Positions 1-8,940 are shown, counted from the stretch's first letter. The stretch: 64,000 bases of DNA from Gemmatimonadota bacterium (GCA_039592335.1 JBDHBX010000001.1:69294-133293); one strand, 5' to 3'. Notes: generated from the letters alone by a model not told the origin. Program-made: numbers and translations.

Positions 1-855
1 CGCTTGATACGCGCCCGCGTACGCCGTCTGGCATCGGATGGCCACGCGGCGGATGCGCTCTGCCGCCGCGCAGGCTTCCAAAACGACGACCAGTCGCGTA
101 AACGCTTCCTCCGAGTCGGCGAACAGCTTCAACACCCGTAACTCTTCGGGTTGGCGACTCTCGGCCAGTGGCGCGGAGTGCCACAAAGCGAATCCCGCAA
201 TGTCATCGTCTCCCTCGATGACCACGGTGTCGCCGATGCCGATCTCCGCCGTCAACTCTATCTCGCGGCTGAAGTCGTAACCCGGCGCCGAGCGGTCGAG
301 ACGCGCGCGGCAGCGCCGCACGAGCTCCCGGCTCTTGCTGCCTGGCACGGACCCGAGGCGATGATACTCCCCACCCACCCGACGGCGCGACGCCTCGCCG
401 GTCATCGTGACGGTGAGGTGGCTGGGAAGGAAGCCAAGCCGACCATAGAATCCGATGTTCTCCACCGTGCGGGGCATCGTCTCGAGACCGAGCGTGGATA
501 CGCCGCGGTCGCGCAGCCACGTCGTAGCGGTTTCGACGATCACGCGACCCGCCCCCAGGCCCTGCCGGTCGGTGCGCACGGCCAGTGGCCCCATCCACCC
601 CTCAGCCCCAGAGCGATGAGCGATGTTGAACGCCGCGACCTCATCGTGCTCGTCGTACCACAGCATGGCCCCCTTGCCGGCGTCGTCGATCGCGTAGCGC
701 CAGATGTCCTCATGCAGCCTAGGGACCCGCACGCCGACCAACCCGTCACGACGGTAGCGGTCAGTGAACGCTTCCGAGAACACGCGGTTGAGCGCATCGA
801 CGTCGCCCACGGTCGCCGGCCGCGGACCCGCGAGCGATCGCTCAGGCCGCAACAT
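1..855 (-). CDS. GNAT-family N-acetyltransferase, partial. The ORF runs off the left window edge, which is why it is absent from the ORF track.
   Basis: My own reverse translation: ATG at 855-853, MLRPERSLAGPRPATVGDVDALNRVFSEAFTDRY... It carries the acetyl-CoA motif RTDRQGLGAGRVIVETATTWLRDRG. The frame is open down to position 1 (285 codons). The start overlaps the sbcC stop by 14 nt. Confidence 0.7.
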   Translation of the reverse strand, partial: MLRPERSLAGPRPATVGDVDALNRVFSEAFTDRYRRDGLVGVRVPRLHEDIWRYAIDDAGKGAMLWYDEHDEVAAFNIAHRSGAEGWMGPLAVRTDRQGLGAGRVIVETATTWLRDRGVSTLGLETMPRTVENIGFYGRLGFLPSHLTVTMTGEASRRRVGGEYHRLGSVPGSKSRELVRRCRARLDRSAPGYDFSREIELTAEIGIGDTVVIEGDDDIAGFALWHSAPLAESRQPEELRVLKLFADSEEAFTRLVVVLEACAAAERIRRVAIRCQTAYAGAYQA

Positions 856-3274
856 GCTCGCCGTCGAAGCTCACCTGGTCCTCACTCACCACAGCGGCTC
901 CTTGTTGTTCGTCCAGCTCCACTCGCAACACCCGGTCGACGCCGTCGCGCACCGACTCAATGTGCGTGATGAGGACCACCTGTGGAAAGCGGTCCGCCAA
1001 CCCGCGCAACAGCTGCACGACGTTGTGGCGCCGATGCTCGTCGAGGCTCCCGAAGATCTCGTCCAGCACCAGCAGCGAGAGCGGTTGACCCGCGCGCTCC
1101 GCGACCATCTGGCTGATGGCGAGGCGCAACACCAGGTGCGTGAGATCTTCCTCGCCACCGGAGATCACCGGCTTGGTCACTCCGTCCTCGACCACCAGCA
1201 CCTGATACTGTTCGTCCAACTCCAGCTCTCCATACCGTCCATCGGTCAGCCCCGCCAGGAACTCCGAGGCACGCTCGGCCAGCTCCGGGCGCATCGCCGT
1301 GTTGAGCTCGAGCCGCAGATCGTGCAACGCGCGGTCGAGCTCGTCGTGTAGCTTGAGCTCACCCTCGACCTCACCCATACGCGCCGCCCGTTTCTCCCGC
1401 TCGCGCAGGTGTCGCTCGGCACTTTCCAGCGCCGTGCGCGCCGCCTTCAGATCGCCCTCGACCGACGCCAGGTGCAGCTCCGCGTCGCGCAACGCCGCCT
1501 CGGCTCCTTCGTACCGCTGCCGCGCTTTCGCGTAAGCCTCCTCATCATACCCGAGATCGGCGATGGCCGCCTCTAGCTGCTTGACGCGTGCTTCACACTC
1601 CGACAGGGCCTTCTCGGCCGCCTCTGCTTCCGAAACGAGCTGCTCCGCGTGCGTTGCCTTGGTCTCGAGTTGCGCGGCCAGCTGGAGCATGGGTTCCAAC
1701 TCCCGCAGTCGCTCGCGCACCGCGTCGTGTCGCGCAGCGTCGTACGCATCCGGCAGGCCGGCCACTTCCTTCTCCAGCTCCGCCTGGCGCTCGTGGAGTC
1801 GCGCGACCTCTCCTTCGAACTCGTTCGCCTCGCGCACCCGGTCCTCACAGCGTGCCACTTCCTGCACGGCCTGCTCCACGCGATCGGCAGCCTGCTCGGC
1901 CGCTACCTCGGCATCCTGTACCGCGGCGGGCGACTCCTTCAGTTGGTCGATACGCTGGCGGAAGAACTTCCCCTTGACCTCTATCTCCTCCATCTGCCGG
2001 TCCAACGTTCCCAACACGTCCTGGTACACATCGCCCAGCGGGCGTTTGCAGATGGGGCACTCGCCGCCCTCACCCGCGTCCAGCACACTATGCCGGTGTC
2101 GTTGATGGTCGAGATACTGGTCGCGCAGGTTGGAGCGAGTGGTTTCTGCATCCTGCCGGTCGCGCACCCAGGCAGTTCGCGTCTTCTCCTGCTCCGCCTC
2201 CGCCTGCTCGAGACCGCGCCGTACCTCCTCGAGGGCCTTCTGAGCGGCGGCAAGCGCCCGCGCGACGTCCCCCATCTGCCCGCGCCGCTCGCGCACGCGC
2301 TCCATCTGCTCCCCCAGCTCACTCAATTGCCCCGTCAACGAGCGTCGCTTCCCGGTACTCTGCGCCTCGTGCTCCAGGCGTTCCAGCTCGTCCCGCAGCG
2401 GCGGCACGTCCTGCAGCGACTCCTGCAGCTCGTCGAGCTTCCCACGCGCGGCCAGGGCCTCAGCCAGCTCCTTGTCCAGGCGCTCGAATCCTCGCCGCGC
2501 CTCGCCAACATCTCGCTCGGCCACCCGTCGCTCTCCATCGAGCGCGAGGGCTGTCTCACGCACCTCCACCATGCGGGTCCATGCCGGTCCCTCTTGATCC
2601 AGCGCCTTGACGGCCGTCGCGCGGTCCTCCACGGCACGCACCACCACAGCCTCCGCCTCGCCGGCGCGTTGCAGCGCCTGCGCCCGCTCGGCCTCGAGCG
2701 CCTCTGCATCCGCCAGGCCGCGCTCCAATCCGGCTAGCTCGCCGCGCAGCCCCGAGCGCGCGTCCCGCAACCGATCCTGTGCGAGCCGCAACTTCTCATA
2801 CCCCAGGACCCGCGACAGGAACCGAGCCCGGTCCGTGGCGCCCATGGCCGCCATCACGGCGAGCTCTTTCTGCCCGGTGAAGTACGTGTTGAAGAACTCG
2901 TCGCGGGTCATCCCGAGCAGCCGTTCGACCCGCGCGCTCACTTCCTGCTGGCTATTGGCGATGGGGGCATCCGAGCGGTCCTGGAACAGCTCGGCGTTGT
3001 AGAGACCGCGCACTACCCGGAACTGATGCGCCCCGAGTGAGAACTCCACCTCGACCCGCACCGAGGAGCGCGCAGGCGCCCGATTCCATCGGATGGTATC
3101 GCGACTGCCCCGCGCGGCCGGATTGCCGTAGAAGGCCCACGCAATCGCCTCGAGCAGCGTGGTTTTCCCAGACCCGTTGGGACCGATGATGGCGGTGATG
3201 CCCGGCCCGAACACGACGTCGGTATCGGCATGCTGCCGGAAGTTCAGAAGCTTCAGCCGGTGCAGCTGCATCAC
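842..3274 (-). CDS. sbcC: SbcC/Rad50-family DNA double-strand-break repair ATPase
   Basis: Walker A GPNGSGKTTLLEAI. Long coiled coil with zinc hook CPICKRPL. C-terminal signature ISGGEEDL and Walker B LLVLDEIFGSLD. ATGA overlap with sbcD. Confidence 0.9.
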   Translation of the reverse strand: MMQLHRLKLLNFRQHADTDVVFGPGITAIIGPNGSGKTTLLEAIAWAFYGNPAARGSRDTIRWNRAPARSSVRVEVEFSLGAHQFRVVRGLYNAELFQDRSDAPIANSQQEVSARVERLLGMTRDEFFNTYFTGQKELAVMAAMGATDRARFLSRVLGYEKLRLAQDRLRDARSGLRGELAGLERGLADAEALEAERAQALQRAGEAEAVVVRAVEDRATAVKALDQEGPAWTRMVEVRETALALDGERRVAERDVGEARRGFERLDKELAEALAARGKLDELQESLQDVPPLRDELERLEHEAQSTGKRRSLTGQLSELGEQMERVRERRGQMGDVARALAAAQKALEEVRRGLEQAEAEQEKTRTAWVRDRQDAETTRSNLRDQYLDHQRHRHSVLDAGEGGECPICKRPLGDVYQDVLGTLDRQMEEIEVKGKFFRQRIDQLKESPAAVQDAEVAAEQAADRVEQAVQEVARCEDRVREANEFEGEVARLHERQAELEKEVAGLPDAYDAARHDAVRERLRELEPMLQLAAQLETKATHAEQLVSEAEAAEKALSECEARVKQLEAAIADLGYDEEAYAKARQRYEGAEAALRDAELHLASVEGDLKAARTALESAERHLREREKRAARMGEVEGELKLHDELDRALHDLRLELNTAMRPELAERASEFLAGLTDGRYGELELDEQYQVLVVEDGVTKPVISGGEEDLTHLVLRLAISQMVAERAGQPLSLLVLDEIFGSLDEHRRHNVVQLLRGLADRFPQVVLITHIESVRDGVDRVLRVELDEQQGAAVVSEDQVSFDGEHVAA

Positions 3275-8119: not shown

Positions 8120-8940
8120 CAGCCTCCGGCCTGTGCTCGCAAGAACGTCTCCACCTGGTGAATGGGATAGAGTAAGCGATCCCAGCGACCGTCGGGGGCG
8201 CTGAGCGGAGCGCGCTCCGTCAGCAACCAGCGGCTCACGGTCGTGGCCTCGGCCAGCGTGGCATCAGTTGCGGGGCGCTCGACCCGCACCAGACCGTGCA
8301 GCAACTCCCGGTCCTCCCACGGCCAGAGTCGAAGATACCACGTGTAAACGGGGCCGCGCTTCCCCAAACGGCGGGCGAAGACGCTGCTGCGGTGCCCCGG
8401 GGGGAGCGTCACGGCCACCTCGAGGTCGGGGCCATCGAGGTATTGGGTCTCGTGGCTCTTGATGAGCCCCAGCACCCGAGGTCCGCCGTCCAGCACGTGG
8501 GCGAGCCCCCCGAGCGCACCGTCGACCACCAGCCAGCAGTCGGGCTCCGTGGTGAGCAGCGCGGTGGCCACCGCGACCTCGAGCTCCTCGCGCCGCCCCT
8601 CGACGACCCTCGCCGCGAGCTGCACGTCCACGATGGGGTGTGGACGCTCTCCCGCCTCGCAATTCGCCAAGGGAAGGCCGGTGTGCTCCAGGGCGACCCG
8701 CTGCCCGGGGGTGAGTCGCTCGACGGGCACGACGATGAACTCCTCGGCCGCGTGGTCGGCGACCTTGAGCTGATCCCCGTCGCGTCGCATCGTGGCGGCC
8801 GCGACATACCCCCGCACCACCGGCACGAGGCCGAAGCGGCCCTCCACGGCATAGCGCTGGATGCCGTCAAGGAACGCCGCCCGCTCCGGCGGGGGCGCCG
8901 GGCCACCCACGTCGATCGCCCGGATGCCCTTGTCCTCCAC
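8113..8940 (-). CDS. nurA: NurA-like nuclease; start uncertain
   Basis: NurA-type motifs AFLDGIQ, WLVVDGALGG and LGLIKSHETQYL. The track ATG at 9240 would overlap the amidohydrolase by 178 nt. The first in-frame canonical start after that gene is GTG at 8940. Stop overlaps the herA start by 7 nt. Confidence 0.55.
   Translation of the reverse strand: MEDKGIRAIDVGGPAPPPERAAFLDGIQRYAVEGRFGLVPVVRGYVAAATMRRDGDQLKVADHAAEEFIVVPVERLTPGQRVALEHTGLPLANCEAGERPHPIVDVQLAARVVEGRREELEVAVATALLTTEPDCWLVVDGALGGLAHVLDGGPRVLGLIKSHETQYLDGPDLEVAVTLPPGHRSSVFARRLGKRGPVYTWYLRLWPWEDRELLHGLVRVERPATDATLAEATTVSRWLLTERAPLSAPDGRWDRLLYPIHQVETFLRAQAGGWW

What the first reader, a model, noticed from the sequence alone, without database searches (positions are those of the whole stretch)
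842..8940. Archaeal-style four-component end-resection set (NurA, HerA, Mre11/SbcD, Rad50/SbcC) in one bacterial co-directional cluster
All genes are on the minus strand and joined by overlapping or abutting stop/start codons. The order is nurA-like (8113-8940), herA-like (6194-8119, 7-nt overlap), two secreted paralogues, sbcD (3271-4458), sbcC (842-3274, ATGA overlap), and a GNAT. The herA-mre11-rad50-nurA operon is the textbook arrangement in thermophilic archaea. In bacteria, HerA-NurA pairs have been studied in Deinococcus-Thermus, to my knowledge without linkage to SbcCD. A bacterial locus uniting all four suggests either a complete archaeal-type resection machine or a DNA-targeting module with another role.
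Basis: partly seen in the sequence, partly recalled or inferred. Interest (0 to 1): 0.6.

Follow-up and report, generated by a model that had tools for sequence, protein, structure and literature searches.

The report
Bacterial NurA-HerA-Mre11-Rad50 repair gene cluster
A Gemmatimonadales bacterium carries, in one tightly packed gene chain, all four proteins that archaea use to trim broken DNA ends; the arrangement is real, conserved across much of its phylum and has one published bacterial precedent, so it is a solid but only moderately new find.

Summary

Pfam and NCBIfam do not recognise HerA or NurA. HerA matches Deinococcus radiodurans HerA (PDB 7F6D, E 4.7e-42). The NurA model (pLDDT 83.7) matches three solved NurA structures best. 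Mre11 and Rad50 keep every catalytic motif and are the only such pair found in this 92.7%-complete genome.

The organism is a Gemmatimonadales MAG. In 49 of 50 related loci with enough flank, mre11-rad50 follows herA. A sister family that lacks nurA-herA nests inside the Mre11/Rad50 tree, which points to secondary loss. Another family has a non-orthologous version built on canonical SbcCD.

No RecBCD or AddAB was found here. I read the cluster as a chromosomal double-strand-break resection module. HerA and NurA belong to bacterial lineages, so this is not a recent archaeal import.

Linkage to sbcCD was already reported for Oceanithermus profundus (PMC5448004). The phylum-wide conservation was not found in the literature searched, and it contradicts a 2026 review.

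The parts
   Evidence: There is no Pfam or NCBIfam hit. A profile of 27 homologues against PDB gives D. radiodurans NurA 7f6d_H at E 0.0029, then the NurA-like TM1739. The AF2 model has pLDDT 83.7. Its top Foldseek hits are 7f6d_G drNurA (E 2.4e-13, TM 0.66), 1zup TM1739 and 2ygk S. solfataricus NurA. The FLDG and VVDG motifs are invariant. The N-terminal extension upstream of 8940 is conserved in homologues.
6194..8119 (-). herA: HerA-family hexameric ATPase/translocase, 641 aa, with deviant P-loop GVSGLATKTS and Walker B VVFVDELNKY
   Evidence: phmmer against PDB gives D. radiodurans HerA 7f6d_B at E 4.7e-42 over residues 4-309 and 393-538. There is no Pfam DUF87 or NCBIfam hit. The same P-loop variant occurs across the family. 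Some JGI homologues are annotated 'DNA helicase HerA-like ATPase'.
5290..6204 (-). Secreted paralogue A (304 aa, signal peptide), member of a weakly DUF6263-like all-beta family
   Evidence: It is about 30% identical to paralogue B. Family members lie between herA and mre11 in 31 of 62 type-A loci. A homologue from genome G029 hits DUF6263 at 25.6 bits, just under the cut-off.
4460..5293 (-). Secreted paralogue B (277 aa, signal peptide), same family as paralogue A
   Evidence: The AF2 model has pLDDT 86.6 and is all-beta. The best Foldseek hits are the lipovitellin, MTP and vitellogenin beta-sheet domains, with TM about 0.5. No relation to DNA is evident.
3271..4458 (-). mre11/sbcD: Mre11-family nuclease, 395 aa, with phosphoesterase motifs I-V intact
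   Evidence: Pfam Metallophos hits at 2.5e-12. NCBIfam gives Mre11_Sulfo 78.0 bits and sbcd 77.5 bits. The motifs DVH, GDLF, GNHD, THG and GHYH were read. The best PDB hits are M. jannaschii and P. furiosus Mre11, ahead of bacterial SbcD. It is the only SbcD-class match in the genome.
842..3274 (-). rad50/sbcC: short Rad50-type SMC-like ATPase, 810 aa, with a CPIC zinc hook at residue 406
   Evidence: Pfam hits SMC_N, AAA_23 and SbcC_Walker_B. NCBIfam's best is archaeal Rad50 PRK03918 at 213 bits, against sbcc at 88 bits. Walker A GPNGSGKTT, the Q-loop, signature SGGE, Walker B LLVLDE, the H-loop and the CxxC hook were read. PDB hits are P. furiosus and M. jannaschii Rad50 at about 98 bits and T. 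maritima at 85 bits, with no E. coli SbcC at 1e-8.
1..855 (-). GNAT acetyltransferase (322 aa in full, runs off the window), start overlaps the rad50 stop by 14 nt
   Evidence: Pfam Acetyltransf_1 hits. The gene follows rad50 in families f1, f2 and f3.

Best explanation
This is a vertically inherited chromosomal gene cluster of Gemmatimonadales that encodes a complete two-stage machine for processing double-strand-break ends.

Inferred mechanism, by analogy with the characterised archaeal and Deinococcus proteins:
- Mre11-Rad50, the only such complex found in the genome, recognises and tethers DNA ends and clips or unblocks them.
- A HerA hexamer then pumps the duplex into a NurA dimer.
- NurA degrades the 5' strand (or both strands) to give the 3' tail that RecA needs.

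What is shown here is the identity of the four proteins, their intact motifs, their tight codon coupling and their conserved linkage. Activities, complex formation, co-transcription and the in-vivo role are inferred.

This genome and its genus show no RecBCD or AddAB. The module is therefore plausibly a main resection route, beside RecJ and a RecQ-like helicase. The two secreted paralogues are probably passengers. The trailing GNAT is a conserved neighbour of rad50 with an unknown role.
For: - Protein identities.
- Intact catalytic motifs.
- Overlapping junctions.
- Sole Mre11/Rad50 in the genome.
- Synteny: aminotransferase, nurA, herA, a 0-2.6 kb gap, mre11, rad50, GNAT across families f1 and f2.
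- Mre11 lies downstream of herA in 49 of 50 type-A loci with enough flank, including a Longimicrobiales MAG.
- HerA occurs in 112 of 150 high-quality genomes of the phylum.
- In the Mre11 and Rad50 trees, family f3, which lacks nurA-herA, nests among families that have them. This implies loss, not recent gain.
- A second, non-orthologous cluster occurs in family f7. It is herA-sbcD-sbcC-nurA or nurA-herA-sbcD-sbcC, built on canonical SbcCD and a HerA from a different clade.
- The same linkage is published for Oceanithermus (PMC5448004) and for thermophilic archaea.
- No RecC was found. No AddAB-sized PD-(D/E)XK proteins were found in any of the 10 other genomes of the genus. RecJ, a RecQ-like gene and Ku are present.
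- HerA and NurA give no defence-system match beyond a 25-bit hit.
Against: - There are no expression or biochemical data.
- The linkage is not always a single operon. G021 has opposite-strand MarR and oxidoreductase genes between herA and mre11. G029 has a glutaminyl-tRNA synthetase gene between nurA and herA. G024 has lost herA but keeps nurA.
- In other phyla nurA-herA stands alone, so HerA-NurA does not need MR as a neighbour.
- Published bacterial phenotypes are mixed. A 2026 review states that bacterial NurA-HerA mainly degrades foreign DNA (PMC13748450).
- From my own knowledge, not checked here: deletion of nurA or herA in Thermus increased UV resistance.
- Some relatives carry both AddAB and the cluster, so the two are not strictly complementary.
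- The genome is 92.7% complete, so absences are provisional.
Confidence: 0.68

Rival explanations
1. The linkage is historical rather than functional. NurA-HerA and Mre11-Rad50 are neighbours through inherited gene order in one phylum but act in separate pathways. HerA-NurA might, for example, work with RecJ, as reported in Deinococcus.
For: - Most loci come from one phylum, so they are not independent.
- Unrelated genes sit between the pairs in several genomes, some on the opposite strand.
- nurA-herA occurs without MR in at least six other phyla.
- Family f3 keeps mre11-rad50-GNAT without nurA-herA.
- A HerA-RecJ interaction has been published for Deinococcus (PMC4663267, listed).
Against: - The same four functions are linked again with non-orthologous proteins and different gene orders in family f7.
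- They are also linked in Oceanithermus and in archaea.
- In many genera herA and mre11 abut or overlap.
- In the window all junctions are codon-coupled.
Confidence: 0.17
2. The cluster is mainly an anti-phage or anti-plasmid system that destroys foreign linear DNA. HerA-NurA would be the effector and Rad50/Mre11 the sensor.
For: - Rad50 scores 120 bits on the Lamassu LmuB model and 119 bits on mad3.
- A 2026 review assigns a foreign-DNA-degrading role to bacterial NurA-HerA.
- HerA-family ATPases occur in known defence systems such as Sir2-HerA and DUF4297-HerA (papers listed).
Against: - The LmuB hit is weaker than the Rad50 hit (213 bits) and reflects the shared SMC fold.
- NurA has no PADLOC match and HerA only a 25-bit hit to mad8.
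- The locus sits at a fixed core position between an aminotransferase and a GNAT, followed by GTP cyclohydrolase, and is inherited vertically.
- No mobile-element genes are nearby.
- It encodes the genome's only Mre11-Rad50.
Confidence: 0.1

Closest known systems
Archaeal herA-mre11-rad50-nurA operon (Sulfolobus, Pyrococcus; Constantinesco et al. 2004, as cited in PMC13748450 and PMC9960219)
   Same: It has the same four functions, encoded contiguously and co-directionally. Rad50 is of the short type (810 aa) with a CxxC hook, and it scores best on archaeal Rad50 models. The NurA fold matches S. solfataricus NurA.
   Different: The gene order differs, with nurA first. HerA and NurA are not orthologues of the archaeal proteins: no archaeal HerA is hit at E<=10 and Pfam DUF87 and NurA do not hit. 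Two secreted-protein genes are inserted, and a GNAT is appended.
Deinococcus radiodurans NurA-HerA complex (PDB 7F6D; PMC9960219)
   Same: It is the closest solved homologue of both proteins. The deviant P-loop is the same (GISGVATKTS against GVSGLATKTS). The pair is likewise nurA followed by herA.
   Different: The window's HerA lies in a separate, well-supported clade from the sequences I labelled Deinococcus-Thermus-like. Both NurA DG motifs are intact here, whereas a review calls those of the bacterial homologues degenerate.
Oceanithermus profundus nurA-hepA-sbcD-sbcC locus (Blesa et al. 2017, PMC5448004)
   Same: It is a bacterial locus with sbcD and sbcC directly downstream of herA. Its authors already interpreted it as an archaeal-like double-strand-break repair architecture.
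   Different: It is a single genus of Thermales mentioned in passing. Here the arrangement spans much of a phylum. It involves a different HerA clade and an Mre11-Rad50 pair unlike canonical SbcCD. I could not fetch the Oceanithermus sequences to compare them directly.
Gemmatimonadota family f7 cluster herA-sbcD-sbcC-nurA
   Same: It has the same four functions, contiguous, in the same phylum.
   Different: SbcD (187 bits on TIGR00619) and SbcC (1052 aa, 224 bits on TIGR00618) are canonical bacterial types. HerA is only 33% identical to the window's and groups with the Deinococcus-Thermus-like clade. In two of the three genomes the gene order equals the archaeal one.

Membership tests
HerA (NurA-associated clade of the FtsK-HerA ATPases) | Significant sequence similarity to an experimentally characterised HerA | tested here: met
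   D. radiodurans HerA 7f6d_B, E 4.7e-42, two stretches covering the N-terminal barrel region and the ATPase core.
HerA (NurA-associated clade of the FtsK-HerA ATPases) | Match to the curated family HMM (Pfam PF01935 DUF87, or an NCBIfam model) | tested here: not met
   No hit even at E<=10. A genome-wide PF01935 search does not pick up this gene. The models do not cover this bacterial clade.
HerA (NurA-associated clade of the FtsK-HerA ATPases) | Walker A and Walker B ATPase motifs | tested here: met
   Walker A is GVSGLATKTS, a deviant form identical in type to that of the active D. radiodurans enzyme. Walker B is VVFVDELNKY. K174, D438 and E439 are invariant in alignments A2 and A3.
HerA (NurA-associated clade of the FtsK-HerA ATPases) | Hexameric ring with ATP-driven DNA translocation | not testable with these tools
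   Needs purified protein.
NurA nuclease | Match to Pfam PF09376 | tested here: not met
   No hit. A genome-wide search gives only an unrelated 12-bit match.
NurA nuclease | NurA-type RNase H-like fold | tested here: met
   The AF2 model has pLDDT 83.7 and pTM 0.83. The three best PDB matches are all NurA proteins: 7f6d_G at 2.4e-13, 1zup at 1.5e-9 and 2ygk at 8.8e-8.
NurA nuclease | Motif I and motif II 'DG' acidic residues (as defined in PMC13748450) | tested here: met
   FLDG (D25, G26) and VVDG (D140, G141) are invariant in 27 homologues.
NurA nuclease | C-terminal motif III with the catalytic histidine | tested here: inconclusive
   The C-terminal helix YPIxQVExYLRA has an invariant Glu (E264) but no invariant His. 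I made no structural superposition of active sites.
NurA nuclease | Gene adjacent to herA | tested here: met
   There is a 7-nt overlap in the window. The genes are adjacent in nearly all relatives.
Mre11/SbcD nuclease | Five calcineurin-like phosphoesterase motifs | tested here: met
   DVH (8-10), GDLF (53-56), GNHD (91-94), THG (162-164) and GHYH (200-203). Pfam Metallophos hits.
Mre11/SbcD nuclease | Score over a curated family cut-off | tested here: inconclusive
   TIGR00619 scores 77.5 bits against a cut-off of 77.65, and 77.7 bits when neighbouring stretches are summed. The archaeal Mre11 equivalog models score far below their cut-offs.
Rad50/SbcC ATPase | Bipartite ABC head (Walker A, Q-loop, signature, Walker B, D-loop and H-loop) split by a coiled coil with a CxxC zinc hook | tested here: met
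   All motifs were read. CPIC lies at 406-409, the midpoint. The Pfam zinc-hook model gives only 15.6 bits, below its cut-off.
Rad50/SbcC ATPase | Equivalog-level match to archaeal Rad50 or to bacterial SbcC | tested here: not met
   The best score is PRK03918 at 213 bits against a cut-off of 700. sbcc scores 88 bits against 478.5. The protein is a distinct lineage that leans towards the short Rad50 type.
Archaeal herA-mre11-rad50-nurA operon | Four genes contiguous and co-directional | tested here: met
   Two extra genes lie between herA and mre11 in this genus. The two genes abut directly in many other genera.
Archaeal herA-mre11-rad50-nurA operon | Orthology of HerA and NurA to the archaeal proteins, and the archaeal gene order | tested here: not met
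   The proteins belong to a bacterial HerA/NurA clade. The order is nurA-herA-mre11-rad50.
Archaeal herA-mre11-rad50-nurA operon | Co-transcription and damage induction | not testable with these tools
Known anti-phage systems (PADLOC models) | System-specific matches for the component proteins | tested here: not met
   Only generic SMC-type hits for Rad50 (LmuB, 120 bits). HerA has a 25-bit hit to mad8, and NurA has none.

The most novel reading that the evidence does not exclude
In most Gemmatimonadales the nurA-herA-mre11-rad50 module, rather than RecBCD, AddAB or AdnAB, is the principal double-strand-break resection pathway. A major soil and desiccation-associated bacterial phylum would then repair breaks in the archaeal manner, using a distinct Rad50-like and Mre11-like lineage that co-evolved with a bacterial HerA-NurA. 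The always-attached GNAT would act as its regulator.
Probability: 0.3. Interest if true: 0.65.

Novelty: new member of a known kind. Interest (0 to 1): 0.45.

Why it matters
The role of NurA-HerA in bacteria is unsettled. Deinococcus data point to recombination, and a recent review favours degradation of foreign DNA. [quoted passage not shown]

Here a whole group of Gemmatimonadota keeps exactly that synteny at a fixed core position. The cluster holds the genome's only Mre11-Rad50, and no RecBCD or AddAB was found in this genus. The same four functions have also been joined a second time with non-orthologous parts.

This is strong comparative evidence for functional coupling. It also points to culturable Gemmatimonas species as bacterial models for testing how MR hands DNA ends to HerA-NurA.

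There is an annotation gap too. These HerA and NurA proteins are labelled 'ATP-binding protein' or 'hypothetical protein' because the family HMMs miss them.

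Tried and rejected
- **Pfam and NCBIfam on HerA and NurA.** No hits even at E 10. This reflects gaps in the models, not evidence against the assignment.
- **First call to the search for related loci.** A 34-sequence alignment was too divergent to seed a scan. A 15-sequence alignment worked.
- **Taxon names for divergent HerA representatives.** The listing of cluster members gave almost no names.
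- **Complementarity between AddAB and HerA-NurA.** Rejected. AddAB-like pairs occur in genomes with the cluster (G015, G017, G027, G037) and in genomes without it (G026, G032, G034).
- **Recent archaeal transfer of the whole cluster.** Rejected for HerA and NurA, which sit in a bacterial clade. Left open for Mre11-Rad50, because I had no archaeal sequences to build a tree and only profile and PDB scores.
- **The two secreted genes as an accident of genus g1.** Rejected. The family sits between herA and mre11 in about half of the loci. Its lipovitellin-like beta fold suggests no DNA role.
- **Promoter and terminator scan.** Nothing found.

Full report
**What is in the window**

The region is about 70% GC. 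It carries a chain of minus-strand ORFs.

I read each junction directly from the sequence:
- The nurA stop and herA start share GTGGTGA, a 7-nt overlap.
- The ATG of the first secreted-protein gene (6204) lies 11 nt inside herA.
- The two secreted-protein genes share GTGA.
- The second secreted-protein gene is followed after 1 nt by the GTG of mre11.
- mre11 and rad50 share GTGATG.
- The GNAT ATG (855) lies 14 nt inside rad50.

The only in-frame starts upstream of 8940 are GTG codons at 9096, 9219 and 9240. The residues between 9096 and 8940 match a conserved N-terminal extension of homologues (...AGGT...LTH.P.P...PFGSA..VE; alignment A1). I therefore place the start at 9096 (327 aa). The gene then overlaps the end of the upstream amidohydrolase (9063-10730) by 34 nt.

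No sigma-70-type promoter or intrinsic terminator is predicted in 1-15000. That says little for this GC content.

**Identity of the four proteins**

Rad50 and Mre11 are clear.
- The 810-aa protein hits SMC_N, AAA_23 and SbcC_Walker_B. The 395-aa protein hits Metallophos.
- Rad50 has Walker A GPNGSGKTT, a Q-loop, a CPIC hook at the exact middle (406-409), signature SGGE, Walker B LLVLDE and an H-loop.
- Mre11 has all five phosphoesterase motifs.

- Neither hits any Pfam or NCBIfam model, even at E 10.
- Genome-wide searches with PF01935 and PF09376 miss them.
- HerA nevertheless matches D. radiodurans HerA (PDB 7F6D chain B) at E 4.7e-42 over most of its length. It shares the unusual P-loop GxSGxATKTS and the Walker B hhhhDELNKYAP.
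- NurA alone gives only E 0.11 to the D. radiodurans NurA, though that is the top hit.
- A 27-sequence profile improves this to E 0.0029, with the NurA-like TM1739 second.
- An AlphaFold model (pLDDT 83.7, pTM 0.83) finds three NurA structures as its best matches: D. radiodurans at 2.4e-13 (TM 0.66), T. maritima TM1739 at 1.5e-9 and S. solfataricus at 8.8e-8. Endonuclease V and Argonaute PIWI domains come far behind.
- Both 'DG' motifs, FLDG and VVDG, are invariant in the family.

All four assignments stand.

**Organism and conservation**

Named homologues are all Gemmatimonadales or Gemmatimonadota MAG proteins. They are annotated 'ATP-binding protein', 'hypothetical protein' or, by JGI, 'DNA helicase HerA-like ATPase'.

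Among 40 relatives, herA and nurA are found in 22 of 24 genomes of family f1 and in 8 of 8 of f2. They are found in 0 of 8 of f3. The mre11 orthologue is found in 39 of the 40.

The common layout is: aminotransferase, nurA, herA, a variable gap, mre11, rad50, GNAT. Family f3 has aminotransferase, a small protein, mre11, rad50 and GNAT at the same place.

A scan of one genome per GTDB species returned 80 loci.
- Of 69 loci with a close ('type-A') HerA, 62 have mre11 downstream.
- Of the 50 loci with more than 4 kb of downstream sequence, 49 have it.
- The exception is a 45%-GC cyanobacterial contig with a lone HerA.

The arrangement also occurs in a Longimicrobiales MAG and in an Armatimonadota MAG.

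In a sample of 150 high-quality genomes of the phylum, 112 have a HerA match. The counts are f1 70/74 and f2 27/31. Several other families have none.

In maximum-likelihood trees of Mre11 and Rad50, family f3 nests among lineages that carry nurA-herA. Families f2 and f5 and Longimicrobiales lie outside it. The simplest reading is ancestral linkage with loss in f3. The trees are midpoint-rooted and several backbone nodes are weak, so this remains an inference.

**The linkage is not always a strict operon**
- In many genera herA abuts or overlaps mre11 (G011, G012, G014, G016, G017, G020, G025, G027).
- In about half of the loci one gene of a secreted all-beta family sits between them. This genus has two copies.
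- G021 has an opposite-strand MarR plus Rieske/FAD oxidoreductase pair there.
- G024 has lost herA to those genes plus a CLC channel, yet keeps nurA.
- G029 has a likely glutaminyl-tRNA synthetase gene, judged from its N-terminal sequence only, between nurA and herA.

**A second, independent version**

In family f7 the HerA is only about 33% identical to the window's. There I found two orders: SMC, DAHP synthase, herA, sbcD, sbcC, nurA in two genomes, and nurA, herA, sbcD, sbcC in a third.
- SbcD (187 bits on TIGR00619) and the 1052-aa SbcC (224 bits on TIGR00618) are canonical bacterial types.
- They are extremely distant from the window's pair, separated by about 6 substitutions per site in the tree.
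- The f7 HerA groups at 100/100 support with representatives that carry the D. radiodurans-type motifs (GISGVATKT, FVVLDEL). I call these Deinococcus-Thermus-like from the motifs, not from names.
- The window's HerA sits in a separate 100/100 clade.
- A third clade unites HerA from Thermotogota, Fervidibacterota, Thermoflexus, Thermokryptus and Syntrophomonadaceae. There nurA-herA stands alone, with no Mre11 or Rad50 within 10 kb.

The coupling to MR/SbcCD has therefore arisen, or been kept, in at least two HerA lineages with non-orthologous partners. This is the strongest argument that it is functional.

**Is it 'archaeal'?**

Composition and contiguity resemble the archaeal operon, but HerA and NurA are bacterial-clade proteins.

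The Mre11-Rad50 pair is more interesting.
- Rad50 scores 213, 146, 133 and 104 bits on four archaeal Rad50 models, against 88 bits on sbcc.
- Mre11 is tied between Mre11_Sulfo (78.0 bits) and sbcd (77.5 bits).
- The f7 proteins serve as an internal control and score the opposite way.
- In PDB the best matches are P. furiosus and M. jannaschii Rad50 and Mre11, then T. maritima. E. coli SbcC and SbcD do not appear at the thresholds used.

I can only say that the pair belongs to the short Rad50-like type shared by archaea and Thermotoga. A proper tree with archaeal sequences could not be built with what the session held.

**Genomic setting and likely role**
- The cluster's Mre11 and Rad50 are the only SbcD-class and SbcC-class genes found in the 92.7%-complete genome. 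The other SMC-type hits are a 1208-aa frame and a 566-aa frame, which I take to be SMC and RecN from their size alone.
- No RecC was found.
- The only PD-(D/E)XK match in this genome, and in all 10 other genomes of the genus, is a frame of about 500 aa, not an AddAB-sized pair.
- RecJ, a RecQ-like gene and Ku are present.
- AddAB-like pairs do occur in some relatives, both with and without the cluster, so there is no clean complementarity.
- PADLOC gives only generic SMC hits for Rad50 (LmuB, 120 bits), a 25-bit hit for HerA and nothing for NurA.
- The flanks are housekeeping genes: aminotransferase, GTP cyclohydrolase I and a short-chain dehydrogenase.

I therefore favour a chromosomal double-strand-break end-resection module (confidence 0.68). 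MR would process the ends and a HerA hexamer with a NurA dimer would carry out long-range resection. Neutral linkage (0.17) and a primarily defensive role (0.10) are the rivals. As with RecBCD, repair and defence roles need not exclude each other.

**Comparison with the literature**
- The archaeal operon is textbook knowledge.
- D. radiodurans NurA-HerA has been solved and characterised (PMC9960219).
- Blesa et al. 2017 (PMC5448004) note that in Oceanithermus profundus sbcD and sbcC lie downstream of hepA/herA. They interpret this as an archaeal-like architecture. A bacterial four-gene locus is therefore not unprecedented.
[quoted passage not shown] The Gemmatimonadota data contradict this.
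- Full-text searches found no paper that connects NurA or HerA with Gemmatimonadota.

I class the finding as a new member of a known kind. Its added value lies in three points: phylum-scale conservation, two independent cluster types, and a HerA/NurA subfamily that current HMMs miss.

**Limits**
- Related genomes are not independent samples.
- Statements of absence depend on MAG completeness.
- The Deinococcus-Thermus label for one HerA clade is inferred from motifs.
- The Oceanithermus locus was taken from the paper and not re-examined.

Noticed in passing
window 1-855 (full gene L107:5181-6149): A 322-aa GNAT acetyltransferase always follows rad50. It overlaps rad50 by 14 nt here. It is conserved in families f1 and f2, and also in f3, which lacks nurA-herA. 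It is absent from the Armatimonadota and Longimicrobiales loci. It may be a regulator or partner of Mre11-Rad50.
   Followed up: partly
window 4460-5293 and 5290-6204: The two secreted paralogues belong to an all-beta family that is weakly DUF6263-like. A member lies between herA and mre11 in 31 of 62 type-A loci, and some relatives carry it as a lipoprotein. The AF2 model (pLDDT 86.6) best matches the lipovitellin, MTP and vitellogenin beta-sheet lipid-binding domains (TM about 0.5). Why an exported protein is so often embedded in a DNA-repair cluster is unexplained.
   Followed up: partly
L108 3263-14739; L109 3766-16450; L110 3596-10792: Family f7 of the same phylum has a non-orthologous four-gene cluster with canonical SbcCD. 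The order is SMC, DAHP synthase, herA, sbcD, sbcC, nurA (the archaeal order) in two genomes, and nurA, herA, sbcD, sbcC in a third.
   Followed up: yes
L016 2073-6415; L018 5408-7556; L017 2380-4050: The cluster is eroded or interrupted in some relatives. G024 has lost herA to an opposite-strand CLC channel, a Rieske/FAD oxidoreductase and a MarR gene, but keeps nurA. G021 has the MarR and oxidoreductase pair between herA and mre11. G029 has a likely glutaminyl-tRNA synthetase gene, judged from its N-terminal sequence only, between nurA and herA.
   Followed up: yes
L056 8737-10710; L049 8861-15553: A 45%-GC contig of the cyanobacterium Tumidithrix elongata carries a lone type-A HerA with no NurA, Mre11 or Rad50 nearby. 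An Armatimonadota MAG contig carries the full type-A cluster. Both suggest horizontal transfer, or mis-binning in the second case.
   Followed up: partly
window 10727-11251; L020 7134-7676: A small protein of about 175 aa (weak DUF2283 hit) follows the aminotransferase. It is conserved in family f3, where it directly precedes mre11. It marks the spot where nurA-herA is missing.
   Followed up: partly
G000:C7:51416-52609 (outside the window): The best RecQ-like match in the genome (442 bits) contains one in-frame TGA.
   Followed up: no
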